NCBI GenBank assembly: GCA_964373715.1
Contig: CAYJVR010000008.1
Span: forward strand, 8,468 to 72,467
Length of the DNA: 64,000 bases
Origin: an uncultured Planctomycetia bacterium
GTDB taxonomy: Bacteria; Omnitrophota; Gorgyraeia; 1-14-0-20-64-10
Direction of reading: 5' to 3'
How positions within the stretch are numbered: position 1 is the first letter of the stretch; the number at the start of each line of letters is the position of its first letter. Below are positions 48,001 through 54,000 of this stretch, piece after piece. The position numbers were made by a program.

Positions 48001-51000
48001 CGGCCGTACGTGGTCATGTCATCAATCACGAAGATTTTCTTGGCCCCGAGCTTTTCCACGGCGAAGCGGGCTCCCGCGGGCCCTTGGAGATCGTCGGTCG
48101 GGCAAACGCGGTAAAAGTTGTCAAACCCCTGGCGGGATATCTCGGGGTTCGAGGAGACGGGGTTCACATGAAGCATCCGGGCTTCGTTATAAATCACCGA
48201 GGCCGGTTTGGTGCAGCTGGAGTTGAGGTGCCCTACCACGGCAACAACGGTCGGATCGGACGCGAGCCGCTTAGCCGCCGAGACCGCCTGAGAGGGACTC
48301 CTTTGGTCATCCAAAACGCTTAACTCAACACGGTAACCGGGGAGAATCTCTCCCTGAGACTTCACGTTCTCAAGAGCCATCTGGACGCCGCGCAGCATAT
48401 CCAGCCCGTGCGCCGCCTGATCCCCCGTCAAAGGACCGACGAAACCGACCCGGACCACTGCCTCCGGCTTGCCGCACCCGGCCAGAAGAAAAAACAGGGC
48501 GGCCGCTAGAGTTGCGGAACGAACAGAAGATGTATTCATTTTGGCATTTAGGTGTCTATGATACACCAAGAAAAGCGCAAAAACACCTAAACGCCGGCAA
48601 GGCGGTGCTTGATGATTTTTACTCTCCCACAACTTCAATGATTGTGGTGCCAGCCCGGTCGAGAACGTTTCCCTCTTCATCCCTTGGCCTGTCATCCTCC
48701 CGTGGGCCGCTCATCCGATTCTTTATCATCGCGTTGGCGTTGTTCTGCGTAATCATGTTCTCCATCTTCTCAGCATGGATCTTGTCCATCAGCTTCGTAT
48801 TCGGCTTAACCGGGCTCATCAGATCCTTGTAGAAATTCCGGATGCTGGCGATCTGCTTATCCGCCTGCTTTCGGAACTTTCTGTCCCGCTTGTATTTCTC
48901 CTGAAAGAGGCCGTAACCGACTCCTCCCGCTACAGCGATAATCAAAACGATCCACGCAAAACGTTTCATAAAATATATCCCTTGAGACAGGCACTTGCGG
49001 CCTAAACCGGACCCGCCGCCTTTGATCCGTCGCTTTATGCTACCCGAAGCCGCTCTCAAGCCAAAGAGGGACTCTGCCGCTGCACCCAACGAAACCGGAG
49101 CAACCGGAGCAGCTGCGCCGCCTTTCGGAATCCCCCTCCCCACTCGAACAACCGGGCTTCCCAGAAACTCAGCCGCGCCGTCAAAACCGGATGCCGCTCC
49201 GGCTTCAGAGCCTTGGCGATGATCCGCTCTTTGGCAATCGGCGGATCGCATCGAAAATTCGCATCCCCTTTTAACCGGCATACCGCCGCACCTCGACGAT
49301 TGCTTATCTGAACGATCCGGTGCACCAGGTTCTGCGAGCCGGCCCGGTAAACCACCACATCGCCGACGCGGAAATCTCCCCCTTCGCACGGCTTCATCTG
49401 CAGAGTCTCTCCGTCACAGAGAAAAGGGCTCATACTGCCTCCCGCAACACAGCCTGTAAAAACAGCATTCCCCTGGAGCTCATGAATAAATTCCACCAAG
49501 GTTTGGTCGAGTTTCTCTTCGGACAGCATGGCATATCGAAACATAGCATGAGACCGGCGGACATTGCAACAGTTGGAAAAGGGCCATTTTGTAAAAAACA
49601 CCGGTCTTTTCAAGATCTGGCTTTAAAAACGGCGGTCTAACAGCTATAATTGAGACGACATCAGGAGGTGCTCAAATGCAACGGAAAAAATGTGCGCAAT
49701 CGTCCGAACATAAACTTCCGACAACGGAGTTTTCTTATAACCCGCCAGCTGTTCAGAAAGAAGGGAACTTGGGATACCGGAAGCGGGGGCGGAAAACCCA
49801 TCTTTCAATCATGGCAGGCACTGCGCAATAGGTTAACAAAGACAGGCCTCCTAACTGAGCAAGCAGGGGAAAGCAGCCCCACCTGCAACACAGACCCGAA
49901 AACCGGAAGAATCGCTCTCTCCCTCAACAGCTCAATCCTAGAAAACCGTTGACGCCTGCCGCCCAATACCGGCATTTCCGGATTGCAGACAGAGAGATCG
50001 CTCTCTCTACCTCCGTCAGCGAAATCGACCGGCTGATTTCCCGGTTCTTGAAGCCGTACCGGATTCCAAAACCCCAAAACGCGCAAGAGCAAGATGCCTC
50101 GATCCGGATCGAAAAGAAACCGATTACCCGCGCCGGTTCGAAAACCCAGGGGCTCGTGCGAATCTCCCTGCACCAAAGATGGGGCCCGCCGAAAACGCAT
50201 TCGGAAATCATCCCCCTCCACTTCCATCCCAAGATTATCTATTTGGGGTACCTGGAGCCGCTCCTGCACCTGATACTCCGCCGAATGGCGGTACACCCTC
50301 TGCACGGAATCATCCTCTTTCGGAGGATAACTGGGATCCTTATCTGCGGCCCAACACGTACGGGCAAAACGACCACCGCGCTCCACCTGACCGGAAAGGG
50401 ATGGGAATTTCTCAACGATGACGAGAGCTATCTCGTCCTCAGAAACCGGCGGGCGCACGCCTGGGGAGTTCCCGGCCCCCTCTACGTTAGATCGGACGCC
50501 GGAAGAAGGTACACTCGGCTCGTGCACGCTCAACGCGGGGTCAAAATCCGGCGAGGGAGGGAAAACCGGTGGCTGATCCGTGATTCTTCCTCATCGCGGA
50601 GCCGCTATCTGCCGCTTCGTTACCTGCTGTTTCCGGAAGTGCGTCCGAAAGAATTAACACGCTTAGTCCCGCTGGACAACCGGCAAGCGCTCTTTCGGCT
50701 CCTGAGCCAAACCTCGCGCGGATGCCAAGGAATGGCGCAAGACCCTCTCTCCGTAAGCAGGGCCTACGCCGTCATGGCCCAAGCGGCGCGGCAGTCCAAG
50801 AGCGCGCTGTTGATCTGGGGCCGGAAGCCTGAAACCGCGGGAGAGCTGCTGGATCGGTTTTTGCAAAACGGCTAAGCGCTGGAATCCGAGATTTTAATCA
50901 GCTGGAGCTTGAGCAGGGACTCCAAAAAAAGCTTCAGATCGGTTTCGGCCTTTTCGGGAGAGAGCGCATATTCCCGGGCAAACGAAGCGCACAACAACTC

Positions 51001-54000
51001 AAATTTTTGAGGGGTAGCGCATGTTTCCCACAGAAAGAGCCCGGCAGAGTTCAAGCTGAAATAATCCCCAGTCCCCAAATGGAGGAGAACCCCCTCCCCC
51101 TCCATCTTCTTAAGCCGGACGCCCCCCTCGCGAGAGATCCTCCTCTTTGAGAAGATCATGCATGCCCTCCTGGAAAACGCAGATTATATCACTGCCGCCG
51201 ACAAAGCACTGCGATCCCGAAACGGAGAATCGCCGACAGCAGAACAAATGGGCGGACGGCCAGATAGGCCGTTTTTTGAAAGAACCCTTTCCCGCAGGCA
51301 AAAAACCGTTTCCTCTCATAAGACCACCACTGCCGGAAGAAAACCGGCCAGCCGAATAAAACCGAACACCAGTCCCAATGGATACCCCCGATTGCAAAAG
51401 CGGTCTCGTGCGAACCGCGGCTCACCACGGACCGGACCATAACCGGCAAAGTCAGCCGGGACCTCAGGAGTTTTGACGCGAAAGGCAGGGCAAGCATTCC
51501 GGAGAAGGAGCGCCGTTCCCAATCTCCTGCAAGATCCAAAGCCAAGCGGAGAGCGGCCGTCGTCCCGCTTTTAGCGGCAATCTGCTCCAGCCCCTTCCAA
51601 TCGAGAGAATCCCCGTAACGGCGCAGGTGAAGCCGGATATCGCAAATCGTGCGAAGGCGAAACGTCTGATCCTTGACAAGGTTGATCGACAGGTGGAGCA
51701 AACAAGCGGCCGGAGCGAGCACCGGAGGCAGCTGACCTTCGCTGGACGGATTAGAAGCGGCCGGCACACGCTGGTTTTCGAACCACTCCATCAAAATCCG
51801 GCCCTCTTTCGTATCCACGTGCAAATCCGATGGAAACCGATGCGGTTCGCACGCCACCGAGAAATCTCCCGGTGTTTTGCGAACAAAGGTTTTGTCATGG
51901 GCGGTCGGGTCGTTCTCGGCCCGATGAAGCGAAAAACGGAAGCCCATCTCTTTCACGATCCGTTCCGTCCTCCGCTGAGCTTCTTCGCCGCCGAAGACAA
52001 ACCAGTCGATGTCCGCCGCGCCTCTCGGGATGGGCCGTTCTCCGTACAGCTGGCGGTGCAGCAGGATCCCTTTCACGAAAGCGACCCGAACGCCCTGCCC
52101 GGCGAACGCCGCCGCCAGTTTCCCGAGGACCTCCTCCTGCCAAATGTCAGCCTCGCAGCACTCGTAGTAACATCCCCGGATCTCTTCAAACACCTCGGGA
52201 AACAACCGGTCCTGAAATTTTTTCAAGTGATACCAGGCGTGGCCGATGATCTGATGCCCTTTCATCAGATCGACCGCGCGAAACCCGTCTTCCGGAGAAC
52301 GCAAGTTTTTTAGAGCCCCCAGAACCTCCTCTTCCGGAAGAGGGTCCGGATCGGAGAGCAGAACCGCCACCCTCTCGTACGGCCGCAGATCCGGATGGCC
52401 GGGACGCGAATGGACCGGCGCGGGGGAAAAACTCGAGTCACTCACGCGGTAATACAGGCATGGCTGATGGATTCACAGCGCTTATCATACACCAAGACAG
52501 AATGCGTCCCAACGGGTGTAACTTCACCCGATATCCTATTGCCGCAACTGTCCACCAATTCTATCGACCGGACGATTCACCGGGAAGGCCCGCGGAATTG
52601 ATTCAAAAATCCTCCATTCTCCCACCTGTTCAATAAGTTTCCATTTCGGGTTTTTGCCATAAAAGATATCGCTGTTGCTCCCATTGACAGCATCGCTTTT
52701 CCCGTGCGGACTGGGCAAAGCGAGATAGCGTGAAATGAGTGATGGGCACTTAATGTAAAATCCGAACTCAAACTGATAGGGCAGGATAAACACCTTCGGG
52801 TTTCCATGGAAAAAGACGACAGGGTAACCGTTGGTGTCATCAAAAAAAATCCGCCCGTTCAGCTTTTTTAAATAAGCCGCCACCTGTTTCTCCTGGAGGA
52901 AGACCTCCTGCTTTTCCCTCTTGACGACAAGAGCGACAAAGCTGCGTTCCGGGCCCCACTGCCATCCCTCCGGAGACATCCAACCGAGCCAAATCCCTGC
53001 CATCGTACCCAGCAACAAGACGGGTCTAAGCCAGCCACGGGGCGGCTTGAGGAAGACAAATCCGATTCCTCCTAAAAGGGCAAAAAAACTTAAAGACAGG
53101 ACCACCTCGGAAAACCACAGCACGATGAAGGCCACGATAAGGGGAGATAAAAGAAGCAGGAGAAACTGACCTCTGCCTTTGAATTGCCAGAGGCTGACAA
53201 GATAGACCGGAAAGTAAAGCAACGGCATGAGCAGATGGAGCCACGATGTCTGTCCTCTTACCGGAGGATTTAGATTAACCATCGAAAGAGTATGCACGAA
53301 GTAGAGAGGGTCTCCTTTGTAAAGCCAATTTATATACATCCATCCGCCAAAAAGGAAGACGACGGGAAAGATGAAGATGGCCATCTTGGACAGCAGAAGC
53401 CACCGATCTTCTCTTCTGATCAAGGTAAAAATCAACGGGAAGAGAAAGAAGAGGGTCTCGTACCGCGTGACTACCGCGACGCCAAAACAAAGGGACGCAA
53501 GGGCAAACACAAAAAGATCCTTCTGCCTCTTCTCAAGAAATCTTTTATGAAAACAGACGTAAAGAACGAGGATCAGAAGAAACATCCCCTGGCTGCCGCT
53601 GATGGAAAAGGCGTAAAGAAAGAGCGGATGGGTCAGGAGCAAGACCAGCAGGCAGAGGGCAAACTTCTCTTTCGTCAAGGAAGAGAGAAAGCATGCCGTC
53701 AATCCCCCGCAGAGAGAAGACATAAACACGCCCCCTTGCAGGTGGAATCCCAAAGCAGCAGGAATAAAAAGGAGGGCAAAGGGAAGCGGCGGGTAGGTTA
53801 AACCAACATTCTCAAATCGAGCGGGTTGCCCCCGCACGACCAGGAGCGCTCTTTCGAGAAGATAAACTTCCTCAGAACCCCAAAAACCCATCCCATGGAC
53901 CCACAACCCACAGAAAAAATACAGGAGAAAAAAACCAGCAAAGAAGTATACTTCATGCCTTCTTAGCATGGGGGGAAAATCCGAGATCTCTCACCTGCTT

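What the first reader, a model, noticed from the sequence alone, without database searches (positions are those of the whole stretch)
48619..52445. Stand-alone RRE + HprK-like kinase + PF14907 nucleotidyltransferase + S26-like peptidase cassette, with no lasso cyclase or protease
Four adjacent genes encode protein families that are best known as accessory tailoring components of lasso-peptide and other RiPP clusters. They are a PqqD-type recognition element (50872-51159), an HPr-kinase-C-like P-loop kinase (49949-50875), a PF14907-type nucleotidyltransferase (51189-52445) and a signal-peptidase-I-like S26 peptidase with no membrane anchor (49056-49544). No asparagine-synthetase-like lasso cyclase, transglutaminase-like leader protease or ABC exporter is nearby. 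This is therefore not a canonical lasso locus. It looks like a self-contained, RRE-guided system that modifies a peptide or protein by phosphorylation and/or nucleotidylylation, and its substrate is unidentified. The two halves converge, with the kinase on the plus strand and the NTase-PqqD pair on the minus strand. The NTase-PqqD pair lies directly downstream of, and on the same strand as, the c-di-GMP-gated polysaccharide-synthase operon, which suggests possible co-transcription.
Basis: partly seen in the sequence, partly recalled or inferred. Interest (0 to 1): 0.75.

Follow-up and report, generated by a model that had tools for sequence, protein, structure and literature searches.

The report
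Lasso-like peptide cassette without a cyclase
An uncultured bacterium carries the accessory kit of lasso-peptide antibiotics (peptide-binding chaperone, kinase, nucleotidyltransferase) with a soluble signal-peptidase-like protease and a previously unnoticed small peptide gene, but no knot-forming enzymes. It therefore probably makes an undescribed kind of linear, phosphate-decorated ribosomal peptide.

Summary
The four genes are real and at the stated coordinates. PqqD and PF14907 pass their Pfam cut-offs. The kinase and peptidase fall below Pfam cut-offs, but family profiles match HPr kinase and human SEC11A and all catalytic residues are present.

A 51-codon ORF (49676-49831, +) lies just upstream of the kinase, with a GGAGG ribosome-binding site and a promoter-like site. 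It carries the lasso-leader motif YxxPxΦ, extended to YxxPxΦxKEGxL.

Homologous small ORFs accompany the cassette in all four other related locus types; one locus has three tandem copies. None of these loci has a lasso cyclase or B2 protease. None of the peptides has a lasso-competent core. In one locus the S26 peptidase is fused to the NTase.

The RRE is lasso-B1-like (TbiB1, E=4e-19).

Best reading: an RRE-guided pathway in which the kinase phosphorylates the peptide's C-terminal region, the NTase decorates the phosphate and the Sec11-type peptidase replaces B2, giving a linear product. The chemistry is inferred, not shown.

Linkage to the c-di-GMP polysaccharide operon is not conserved, but glycosyltransferase neighbours recur. 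I found no description in the searchable literature. Verdict: new variant of a known kind.

The parts
49676..49831 (+). Candidate precursor peptide gene, new in this analysis. 51 aa: MQRKKCAQSSEHKLPTTEFSYNPPAVQKEGNLGYRKRGRKTHLSIMAGTAQ. Lasso-type leader motif Y21-x-x-P24-x-V26 extended to K28-E-G30-x-L32. C-terminal region ...T41-H-L-S44-I-M-A47-G-T49-A-Q.
   Evidence: Homologous small ORFs lie next to the kinase or RRE in L003, L004, L005 (three tandem copies) and L006, with the motif at the PqqD C-terminus in L012. The strict motif occurs nowhere else in 285,202 six-frame residues. Conserved residues use different synonymous codons across loci. Y and P also align with the characterised lasso precursor BsfA.
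49664..49668 (+). GGAGG ribosome-binding site, 7 nt upstream of the peptide's ATG
   Evidence: Read directly from the sequence.
49622..49650 (+). Promoter-like site TTTAAA-17-TATAAT (10 of 12) for the peptide-kinase transcript
   Evidence: Consensus scan. A pattern match only.
49586..49613 (-). Promoter-like site TTGAAA-16-CAAAAT (9 of 12) facing the peptidase gene
   Evidence: Consensus scan. A pattern match only.
49949..50875 (+). HprK-like P-loop peptide kinase, 308 aa, TTG start. The N-terminal domain is conserved in homologues. Catalytic H119, G134, G139-K140-T141, D157-D158.
50872..51159 (-). Stand-alone PqqD-type RiPP recognition element of the lasso-B1 type, 95 aa. Its 3' end overlaps the convergent kinase gene by 4 nt.
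   Evidence: PF05402 55 bits. Family profile against TbiB1 (5v1u) E=4.3e-19, against TfuB1 3.4e-11, against PqqD proper 8.6e-4. BLASTP against BsfB1 E=4e-9.
51189..52445 (-). PF14907 nucleotidyltransferase, 418 aa. Pol-beta-type motifs K125-G126 and D145-x-D147. Hydrophobic C-terminal helix at 397-415.
49056..49544 (-). Anchorless Sec11/SipW-type (S26B) serine peptidase, 162 aa. Ser37, His75-Arg76, Asp94, Asp100.
   Evidence: Fused to the NTase in L005.

Best explanation
This is a ribosomal-peptide (RiPP-like) maturation cassette derived from the tailoring arm of phosphorylated/glycosylated lasso-peptide pathways. It has no knot-forming step.

The 51-aa product of 49676-49831 is the substrate. 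Its YxxPxV(x)KEGxL segment is bound by the stand-alone lasso-B1-type RRE (inferred from the motif and RRE homology). The RRE presents the C-terminal region to the HprK-like kinase, which phosphorylates a Ser/Thr hydroxyl; T41, S44 and T49 are candidates (inferred by analogy with BsfK, PadeK and PsmK). The PF14907 NTase then decorates that phosphate, with hexose as PsmN does in pseudomycoidin or with a nucleotidyl group (inferred).

The soluble Sec11/SipW-type S26 peptidase takes the place of the B2 leader protease. It may cut after the semi-conserved hydrophobic-x-Ala site (I45-M46-A47|G48); that site is speculative.

There is no cyclase and the core has no acidic acceptor, so the product is linear. 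The export route and biological role are unknown.
For: Shown:

1. All four enzyme families are present with intact catalytic motifs.
2. The set is syntenic in the window/L002, L003 (contig-limited), L004/L007, L005 and L006. It also occurs in more distant form in L011 and L012.
3. A small ORF with Y..P.[LIV].K[EH]G accompanies every close locus. It is triplicated in L005 and is under protein-level selection.
4. YxxPxL is the documented lasso-leader motif at positions -17 to -12 (PMC10368454, PMC6784204). The RRE family matches lasso B1 structures far better than PqqD itself.
5. The B1 RRE strongly stimulates the homologous kinase BsfK, which phosphorylates Ser3 of the core (PMC10368454).
6. 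PadeK phosphorylates the C-terminal Ser of its precursor. PsmN adds hexose to the phosphate. NTase-B2 fusions exist in Firmicutes lasso clusters (PMC8498205). The S26-NTase fusion in L005 parallels these.
7. No cyclase, B2 or exporter was found in the 64-kb window or the close loci.
8. Counting from Tyr = -17, the cores are GRKTHLSIMAGTAQ, RDPAYRVIVAHASAP, RQPSYFLIATGATGL, GEQSYFFIKANESFGGGP, ERDRWLTVRAMPYE, SAYA, D and SGE. None has Asp/Glu at positions 7-9, and three are too short to form a ring.
Against: - There is no biochemical or expression evidence. All loci come from metagenomes.
- The kinase and peptidase fall below Pfam gathering scores.
- No Ser/Thr is positionally conserved across all the peptides, so the phosphorylation site cannot be assigned.
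- A hydrophobic-x-small site is common by chance in short tails.
- L015 has the peptide, RRE and S26 peptidase but no kinase or NTase within 20 kb. Phospho-decoration is therefore not obligatory for the wider family.
- There is no exporter in the window.
- A cyclase encoded elsewhere in the genome cannot be strictly excluded for a MAG.
- The NTase model is poor (pLDDT 56.7), so its fold matches are only suggestive.
Confidence: 0.7

Rival explanations
1. Scaffold or primer peptide. The small peptide is not the end product. It is a carrier whose short C-terminal tail is phosphorylated and then built up into a phosphoglycan or small molecule by the NTase and neighbouring glycosyltransferases. The S26 peptidase then releases the product. 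This would be pearlin-like logic applied to glycan chemistry, and could feed the adjacent polysaccharide machinery.
For: Three peptide types have essentially no core after the leader: SAYA, D and SGE. These lie beside GT4 genes. L015 embeds the peptide, RRE and S26 peptidase among DegT, an epimerase, three GT4s, methyltransferases and AsnB. The P0013 kinase-PqqD pair follows four glycosyltransferase genes. In the window the cassette abuts the MshEN-GT2/BcsB-like operon. K, N and GT genes also co-occur in rumen lasso clusters (PMC7533575).
Against: The window, L005 and L006 peptides have 14-18-residue semi-conserved tails and no GT4 neighbour. Glycosyltransferase loci are common, so adjacency may be incidental. 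There is no precedent for S26 peptidases releasing such products.
Confidence: 0.15
2. Decayed or split lasso cluster. The cyclase and B2 protease were lost, or are encoded elsewhere and act in trans, so the cassette is only the tailoring half of an ordinary lasso pathway.
For: Every component except the S26 peptidase is known from lasso clusters. The leader motif and the RRE are lasso-type. The L004-type locus contains gene fragments, which shows local decay.
Against: Five divergent locus types all lack C and B2 within 7-10 kb, and the 64-kb window lacks them entirely. All enzymes keep their catalytic residues. None of the peptides has a ring-forming Asp/Glu at core positions 7-9, and three cores are 1-4 residues long. 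The S26 peptidase is conserved and is once fused to the NTase, in the manner of B2-NTase fusions.
Confidence: 0.06
3. Regulatory phospho-switch. An HprK-like kinase/phosphorylase and its partners control exopolysaccharide synthesis by phosphorylating a small protein or peptide, analogous to HPr, rather than making a natural product.
For: The kinase is homologous to HPr kinase/phosphorylase. The cassette is adjacent to the c-di-GMP-gated synthase operon in the window, and GT genes neighbour it elsewhere.
Against: The polysaccharide operon is not conserved next to the cassette. The peptide gene is triplicated with divergent C-termini, which is typical of RiPP precursors. The presence of a protease and an NTase, and an ABC exporter in L011, fits biosynthesis better than signalling.
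Confidence: 0.06
4. Chance adjacency, with a spurious small ORF.
For: Two of the four Pfam hits are below threshold.
Against: Synteny holds across loci of 37-45% identity. There is a gene fusion. The motif is exclusive to these ORFs in about 285,000 six-frame residues. Synonymous codon variation occurs at conserved residues.
Confidence: 0.01

Closest known systems
Phosphorylated and phosphoglycosylated lasso-peptide clusters: paeninodin (pade), pseudomycoidin (psm), Bradymonas bsf (A, B1, B2, C, D, K, N)
   Same: Precursor with a YxxPxL-type leader. Stand-alone PqqD/B1 RRE. HprK-like kinase with the same H...G..G.GK[ST]...DD catalytic set. PF14907 NTase. Kinase activity stimulated by the RRE in the bsf system. 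NTase sometimes fused to the leader protease.
   Different: No Asn-synthetase-like cyclase, no transglutaminase-like B2 and no ABC exporter here. The cores cannot form a macrolactam. A soluble S26B peptidase is present instead. Sequence identity to BsfK is confined to the roughly 40-residue P-loop core.
ER/archaeal-type signal peptidase I (S26B): Sec11/SEC11A, SipW
   Same: Ser-His-Asp-Asp catalytic arrangement, with GSMxP, VHR(V/I) and GDxN...D motifs aligned to human SEC11A. Passes TIGR02228 marginally.
   Different: No transmembrane anchor, so presumably cytoplasmic. Encoded in a RiPP-like cassette and once fused to an NTase. The nucleophile is Cys in the L004/L015 relatives.
Haft's HPr-rel-A system (TIGR04352/04353/04355) and the SynChlorMet cassette (ScmC/ScmD with radical SAM enzymes)
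   Same: An HprK-related kinase is paired with a PqqD-family peptide chaperone.
   Different: Scores are far below the model cut-offs: 16.5 against 200, 24.7 against 35, 21.5 against 125, 20.9 against 100. There is no second kinase and no radical SAM/SPASM partner in the window.
Scaffold-peptide (pearlin/PEARL-type) biosynthesis (comparison from general knowledge)
   Same: The short-tailed relatives (L003, L004, L012, L015) look like leader-only peptides with 1-4 C-terminal residues available for chemistry.
   Different: No PEARL or LanB-like enzyme is present. The resemblance is conceptual only and untested.

Membership tests
Lasso peptide biosynthetic gene cluster | Asn-synthetase-like lasso cyclase (C, PF00733) | tested here: not met
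   Pfam on the large window ORFs finds NadE, FtsH, PurF and similar, but no Asn_synthase. phmmer with an AsnB query hits only PurF. None is called in L004-L007.
Lasso peptide biosynthetic gene cluster | Transglutaminase-like leader protease (B2, PF13471) | tested here: not met
   phmmer with BsfB2 and the L013 Transglut_core3 protein finds nothing at E<=1 in the window or the close loci.
Lasso peptide biosynthetic gene cluster | Precursor core with an N-terminal Gly/Ala/Ser/Cys and an Asp/Glu at position 7-9 | tested here: not met
   The cores deduced from Tyr = -17 lack an acidic residue at positions 7-9. Three cores are 1-4 residues long.
Lasso peptide biosynthetic gene cluster | PqqD-like B1 RRE together with a YxxPxL leader motif | tested here: met
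   RRE profile against TbiB1 E=4.3e-19. Y and P are invariant, with L/I/V at +5, in all peptides and in BsfA.
Lasso-associated HprK-like precursor kinases (PadeK/BsfK type) | Conserved H, G, G-K-S/T and D-D catalytic residues with fixed spacing | tested here: met
   H119, G134, G139-K140-T141 and D157-D158 align to BsfK H148, G163, G168-K169-S170 and D186-D187.
Lasso-associated HprK-like precursor kinases (PadeK/BsfK type) | Phosphorylates the precursor peptide; stimulated by the RRE | not testable with these tools
   Requires co-expression or in vitro assay with mass spectrometry.
Pfam PF07475 Hpr_kinase_C | Score at or above the gathering threshold (33.3 bits) | tested here: not met
   18.5 bits, E=1.5e-3. 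All 5 close homologues hit the model (best E=2.3e-6), so this is a divergent relative rather than a threshold member.
Pfam PF14907 NTP_transf_5 | Score at or above the gathering threshold (31.2 bits) | tested here: met
   95.9 bits. The G and DxD motifs are invariant.
S26B signal peptidase (Sec11/SipW; TIGR02228) | Ser/His/Asp/Asp catalytic residues and a model score at or above cut-off | tested here: met
   52.6 against 51.85 bits. Aligned to SEC11A at E=4.5e-11 across the motifs. S37, H75, D94 and D100 are conserved.
S26B signal peptidase (Sec11/SipW; TIGR02228) | Membrane anchor placing the active site at the trans side of the membrane | tested here: not met
   No hydrophobic segment: max 19-residue Kyte-Doolittle mean is 1.02.
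HPr-rel-A system (TIGR04352/TIGR04353) | Equivalog scores at or above cut-offs | tested here: not met
   16.5 against 200, and 24.7 against 35.
SynChlorMet cassette (ScmC/ScmD plus radical SAM) | ScmC/ScmD equivalog scores and radical SAM/SPASM partners | tested here: not met
   21.5 against 125, and 20.9 against 100. No radical SAM gene lies in the cassette.

The most novel reading that the evidence does not exclude
The lasso-type leader/RRE pair has been co-opted as a carrier system. A leader-only scaffold peptide is phosphorylated on its short C-terminal tail. The NTase and neighbouring glycosyltransferases build a phosphodiester-linked glycan, or another small molecule, on that phosphate. 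A cytoplasmic Sec11-like peptidase then clips it off. That would be ribosomal-peptide-primed glycan or small-molecule biosynthesis, linking RiPP machinery to polysaccharide loci.
Probability: 0.15. Interest if true: 0.9.

Novelty: new variant of a known kind. Interest (0 to 1): 0.7.

Why it matters
If correct, this defines a RiPP family in which the lasso leader/RRE recognition module works without cyclase or B2. It would produce linear phospho- or phosphoglyco-peptides, and it would use a protease class (soluble S26B, Sec11-like) not previously linked to RiPP maturation in the literature I could search.

It gives a concrete, testable substrate: one 51-aa peptide and four enzymes, about 3.4 kb, easily synthesised.

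It could also clarify what PF14907 nucleotidyltransferases actually do, which is still unresolved even in pseudomycoidin.

The recurrent placement in glycosyltransferase loci raises the possibility of peptide-linked phosphoglycans in bacteria.

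Tried and rejected
1. Two scans of the GTDB species-representative genomes, with kinase and NTase patterns, found no relatives. I therefore have no cultured host and no taxonomy. An alignment that included the L004 NTase was too divergent to search with.
2. Word-indexed protein searches were nearly empty: 2 hits for the kinase and 5 for the NTase. Only the exhaustive HMMER run showed the wider family: 732 hits, of which 5 are close.
4. The NTase model was poor (pLDDT 56.7). Foldseek gave only weak NTase-fold matches: 5uvd and ANT(2'')-Ia. There was no PDB sequence relative.
5. PADLOC showed nothing meaningful, so a defence-system reading is rejected.
6. Literature searches combining lasso, signal peptidase/S26/S24, NTase, kinase, PF14907, HPr-rel-A and SynChlorMet found no description of this cassette. 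One search was swamped by unrelated 'SCMC' papers.
7. No precursor could be identified in the distant L011 locus.
8. The 100-aa ORF at 49650-49952(+) and the 54-aa ORF at 49644-49808(-), which overlap the peptide region, show no counterpart in the related loci and were discarded.
9. The small membrane protein at 48619-48969 has no homologue in related loci.

Full report
**1. Observation**

The region holds the four ORFs as described.

- PqqD, 50872-51159(-), scores 55 bits on PF05402 (cut-off 23.4).
- The NTase, 51189-52445(-), scores 95.9 bits on PF14907 (cut-off 31.2).
- The kinase, 49949-50875(+), reaches only 18.5 bits on Hpr_kinase_C (cut-off 33.3).
- The peptidase, 49056-49544(-), reaches only 18.1 bits on Peptidase_S24. 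It does pass NCBIfam TIGR02228, the archaeal/ER-type signal peptidase I model, by a hair (52.6 against 51.85).

The two weak assignments hold up at family level. All five close kinase homologues hit Hpr_kinase_C (best E=2.3e-6). Their profile finds HPr kinase/phosphorylase structures at E=4e-7. The peptidase profile finds human SEC11A (7p2p) at E=4.5e-11, with the GSMxP, VHRV and KGDxN..D motifs aligned. Ser37, His75, Asp94 and Asp100 are conserved. Their spacing matches what I recall for yeast Sec11 S44/H83/D103/D109; that comparison is from memory.

The peptidase has no hydrophobic anchor.

The window comes from an uncultured organism. It matches a Logan assembly of ERR3478687 and a near-identical MAG, GCA_947085675.1. 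BamA and TamB are present, so the organism is a diderm.

**2. No lasso machinery**

The large ORFs of the 64-kb window are housekeeping genes: NadE, FtsH, BamA, DnaB, PurL/F/D/B. phmmer with BsfB2, a Transglut_core3 protein and an AsnB found only PurF. The only ABC components are the LivFG importer ATPases.

**3. Related loci**

The kinase subfamily is rare. An exhaustive HMMER search of 1.84 billion representatives gave 732 hits at E<1e-3, but only five clusters at E<1e-30. Neither the kinase nor the NTase patterns found relatives in the GTDB representative genomes.

I recovered contigs for all the close clusters. HMMs built from my alignments confirm the assignments, including the PqqD genes that gene callers missed in L003 and L006.

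| Locus | Content |
|---|---|
| L003 | Peptide, kinase, GT4, PqqD. Limited by the contig ends. |
| L004/L007-L010 | Peptide, PqqD, a sulfotransferase-like gene, kinase, NTase, S26 peptidase, GT4 |
| L005 | Three peptides, kinase, PqqD, and a single 506-aa S26-peptidase-NTase fusion |
| L006 | S26 peptidase, peptide, kinase, PqqD, NTase |
| L011 (distant) | Kinase, PqqD, S26, ABC exporter, NTase |
| L012 (distant, high GC) | NTase, PqqD, S26-like, kinase, two GT4 |

None of these loci has a cyclase or a B2 protease.

**4. The substrate**

In the 335-nt gap between the divergent peptidase and kinase genes there is a 51-codon ORF at 49676-49831(+). GGAGG lies 7 nt upstream of its ATG, and a promoter-like TTTAAA-17-TATAAT lies at 49622-49650.

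A homologous small ORF accompanies every close locus. Each lies directly upstream of the kinase, except in L004, where it lies beyond the PqqD gene:

- window: ...SYNPPAVQKEGNLGY...
- L003: ...SYERPLIKKEGNLRY...
- L005: NYQSPAIQKEGNLGF, AYEPPTICKEGNLGF and DYQPPQLKKEGNLGF (three tandem copies)
- L006: GYEPPQLRKEGAVSF
- L004: KYTKPRLTKHGILST

In L012 the same motif (YERPAIERLGHL) forms the C-terminus of the PqqD ORF.

The strict pattern Y..P.[LIV].K[EH]G occurs nowhere else in 285,202 six-frame residues of the loci held at that point. Conserved residues use different synonymous codons between loci. The conservation is therefore at the protein level.

YxxPxL is the documented RRE-recognition motif of lasso leaders, at positions -17 to -12 (PMC10368454 and PMC6784204). 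Y and P align with the characterised precursor BsfA.

The RRE family's best solved relatives are lasso B1 proteins: TbiB1 at 4.3e-19, 9x90 at 1.8e-13 and TfuB1 at 3.4e-11. PqqD itself reaches only 8.6e-4.

**5. Why it is not a lasso peptide**

Counting from Tyr = -17, the cores would be:

- window: GRKTHLSIMAGTAQ
- L005: RDPAYRVIVAHASAP, RQPSYFLIATGATGL and GEQSYFFIKANESFGGGP
- L006: ERDRWLTVRAMPYE
- L003: SAYA
- L004: D
- L012: SGE

None has the Asp/Glu at position 7-9 needed for a macrolactam, and three are too short to form a ring.

The long-type tails share a pattern: [Y/H/W]-hydrophobic-x-[I/V]-x-Ala, followed by 4-9 variable residues.

**6. Mechanism (inferred)**

The kinase aligns with BsfK over its catalytic core. 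H119, G134, G139-K140-T141 and D157-D158 have the same spacing as the residues shown by mutagenesis to matter in BsfK.

BsfK phosphorylates Ser3 of the core and is strongly stimulated by the B1 RRE. PadeK phosphorylates a C-terminal Ser. PsmN, a PF14907 NTase, adds hexoses to that phosphate. NTase-B2 fusions occur in Firmicutes lasso clusters.

The S26-NTase fusion in L005 is the same kind of fusion with a different protease. I read this as the S26B enzyme having replaced B2.

My proposed order of events is:

1. The RRE binds the YxxPxV segment.
2. The kinase phosphorylates a Ser/Thr in the tail.
3. The NTase decorates the phosphate.
4. The peptidase trims the peptide, possibly after I-M-A47. 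That site fits the -3/-1 preference of signal peptidases, but such a site is frequent by chance.

I put about 0.8 on 'RRE-guided maturation cassette acting on this peptide'. I put about 0.3-0.4 on the individual chemical steps.

**7. Context and the polysaccharide link**

The gap between the NTase and the upstream membrane-protein gene is 90 nt. It has no terminator-like site and contains one promoter-like site. Read-through is therefore possible but unproven.

The BcsB/GT2 operon is absent from every other locus. However, glycosyltransferases recur:

- GT4 genes in L003, L004 and L012.
- Four GT genes before the kinase-PqqD pair of outgroup P0013.
- L015, found with a profile of the peptides. 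Here the peptide (…KKKYTKPRLTKHGILSIVEGD), an RRE and an S26-like peptidase lie among DegT, an epimerase, AsnB, methyltransferases, a B12-rSAM enzyme and three GT4 genes, with no kinase or NTase.
- Rumen lasso clusters also combine K, N and GT genes.

This keeps alive a scaffold or primer reading, especially for the short-tailed peptides.

**8. Comparison and novelty**

The closest known systems are the phospho- and phosphoglyco-lasso clusters (pade, psm, bsf). The RRE, the leader motif, the kinase and the NTase are shared. The cyclase, B2 protease, exporter and a lasso-competent core are missing, and an anchorless Sec11-type peptidase is added.

The cassette is not a member of Haft's HPr-rel-A or SynChlorMet systems; its scores are far below their cut-offs. 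PADLOC gives nothing.

I found no paper describing the cassette. Subscription literature is not covered, so prior description cannot be excluded.

I rate it a new variant of a known kind: rare, metagenome-only, but with a complete and testable parts list.

Noticed in passing
window 48619-48969 (-): A 116-aa protein with an N-terminal membrane anchor (MKRFAWIVLIIAVAGG...) lies just downstream of the S26 peptidase and inside the finding's coordinates. It has no homologue in any related locus and no family assignment.
   Followed up: partly
window 51189-51248 (-), NTase residues 397-415: The NTase ends in a hydrophobic helix (VRPFVLLSAILRFGIAVLC, KD19 1.93). R398-P399-F400 are conserved in close homologues. 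This may be a membrane-association element.
   Followed up: no
L005 9062-10582 (-): A natural fusion of the S26-type peptidase to the N-terminus of the PF14907 NTase (506 aa). It parallels the B2-NTase fusions reported in Firmicutes lasso clusters.
   Followed up: yes
L012 2678-3076 (+): The peptide motif (…AAYERPAIERLGHLETLILSGE) sits at the C-terminus of the PqqD ORF behind a Gly/Ser/Pro-rich linker. This is an apparent natural RRE-substrate fusion. The neighbouring S26-like protein has Thr where the catalytic His should be.
   Followed up: partly
L004 9549-10217 (-); L015 14325-14891 (+): The S26-like peptidases of the short-tail peptide loci carry Cys instead of Ser at the nucleophile position (G[ST]CMNP).
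   Followed up: no
L015 2403-14891: A 12-kb sugar-modification and glycosyltransferase cluster: epimerase, AsnB, two methyltransferases, a B12-rSAM enzyme, DegT and three GT4. It contains two PqqD genes, the lasso-leader-like 41-aa peptide and the S26-like peptidase, but no kinase or NTase. L004/L007 carries fragments of the same rSAM, DegT and GT genes.
   Followed up: partly
L013 4453-13873: The outgroup kinase P0012 lies with a Transglut_core3 (B2-like) protein, three PqqD genes, a 59-aa ORF carrying YSKPSV, two B12-radical-SAM enzymes and a GNAT, with no Asn synthase. This is another cyclase-less cluster using a lasso-type leader.
   Followed up: no
L004 5989-6990 (-); L005 10663-12315 (+) and 16014-16814 (+): A sulfur theme near the cassette: a sulfotransferase-like gene in L004 (Sulfotransfer_3, 24.8 bits, below cut-off); a SulP/STAS transporter directly beside the S26-NTase gene in L005, with a PAPS reductase about 5 kb away. 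Sulfotransferases are also reported in Firmicutes lasso clusters.
   Followed up: no
window 50872-50875: The kinase and PqqD genes converge and overlap by 4 nt. The convergent kinase/PqqD arrangement recurs in L005 and L006. In L006 the overlap is about 200 nt, because the kinase has a low-complexity C-terminal extension.
   Followed up: partly
window 52536-58707 (-): A polysaccharide operon. It has a BcsB-like protein, a 277-298-aa protein with no family, and an MshEN + GT2 synthase with a curated c-di-GMP motif. It also has a multi-pass membrane protein weakly similar to the LA_3751/LA_3752 putative glycosyltransferases.
   Followed up: partly
window 61436-63271 (+): A 611-aa ORF with no Pfam family at E<=1e-5. 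It overlaps several other ORFs and may be spurious.
   Followed up: no
window 16498-16568 (-): tRNA-Gln (TTG). It is the only Rfam or ARAGORN hit in the window.
   Followed up: yes
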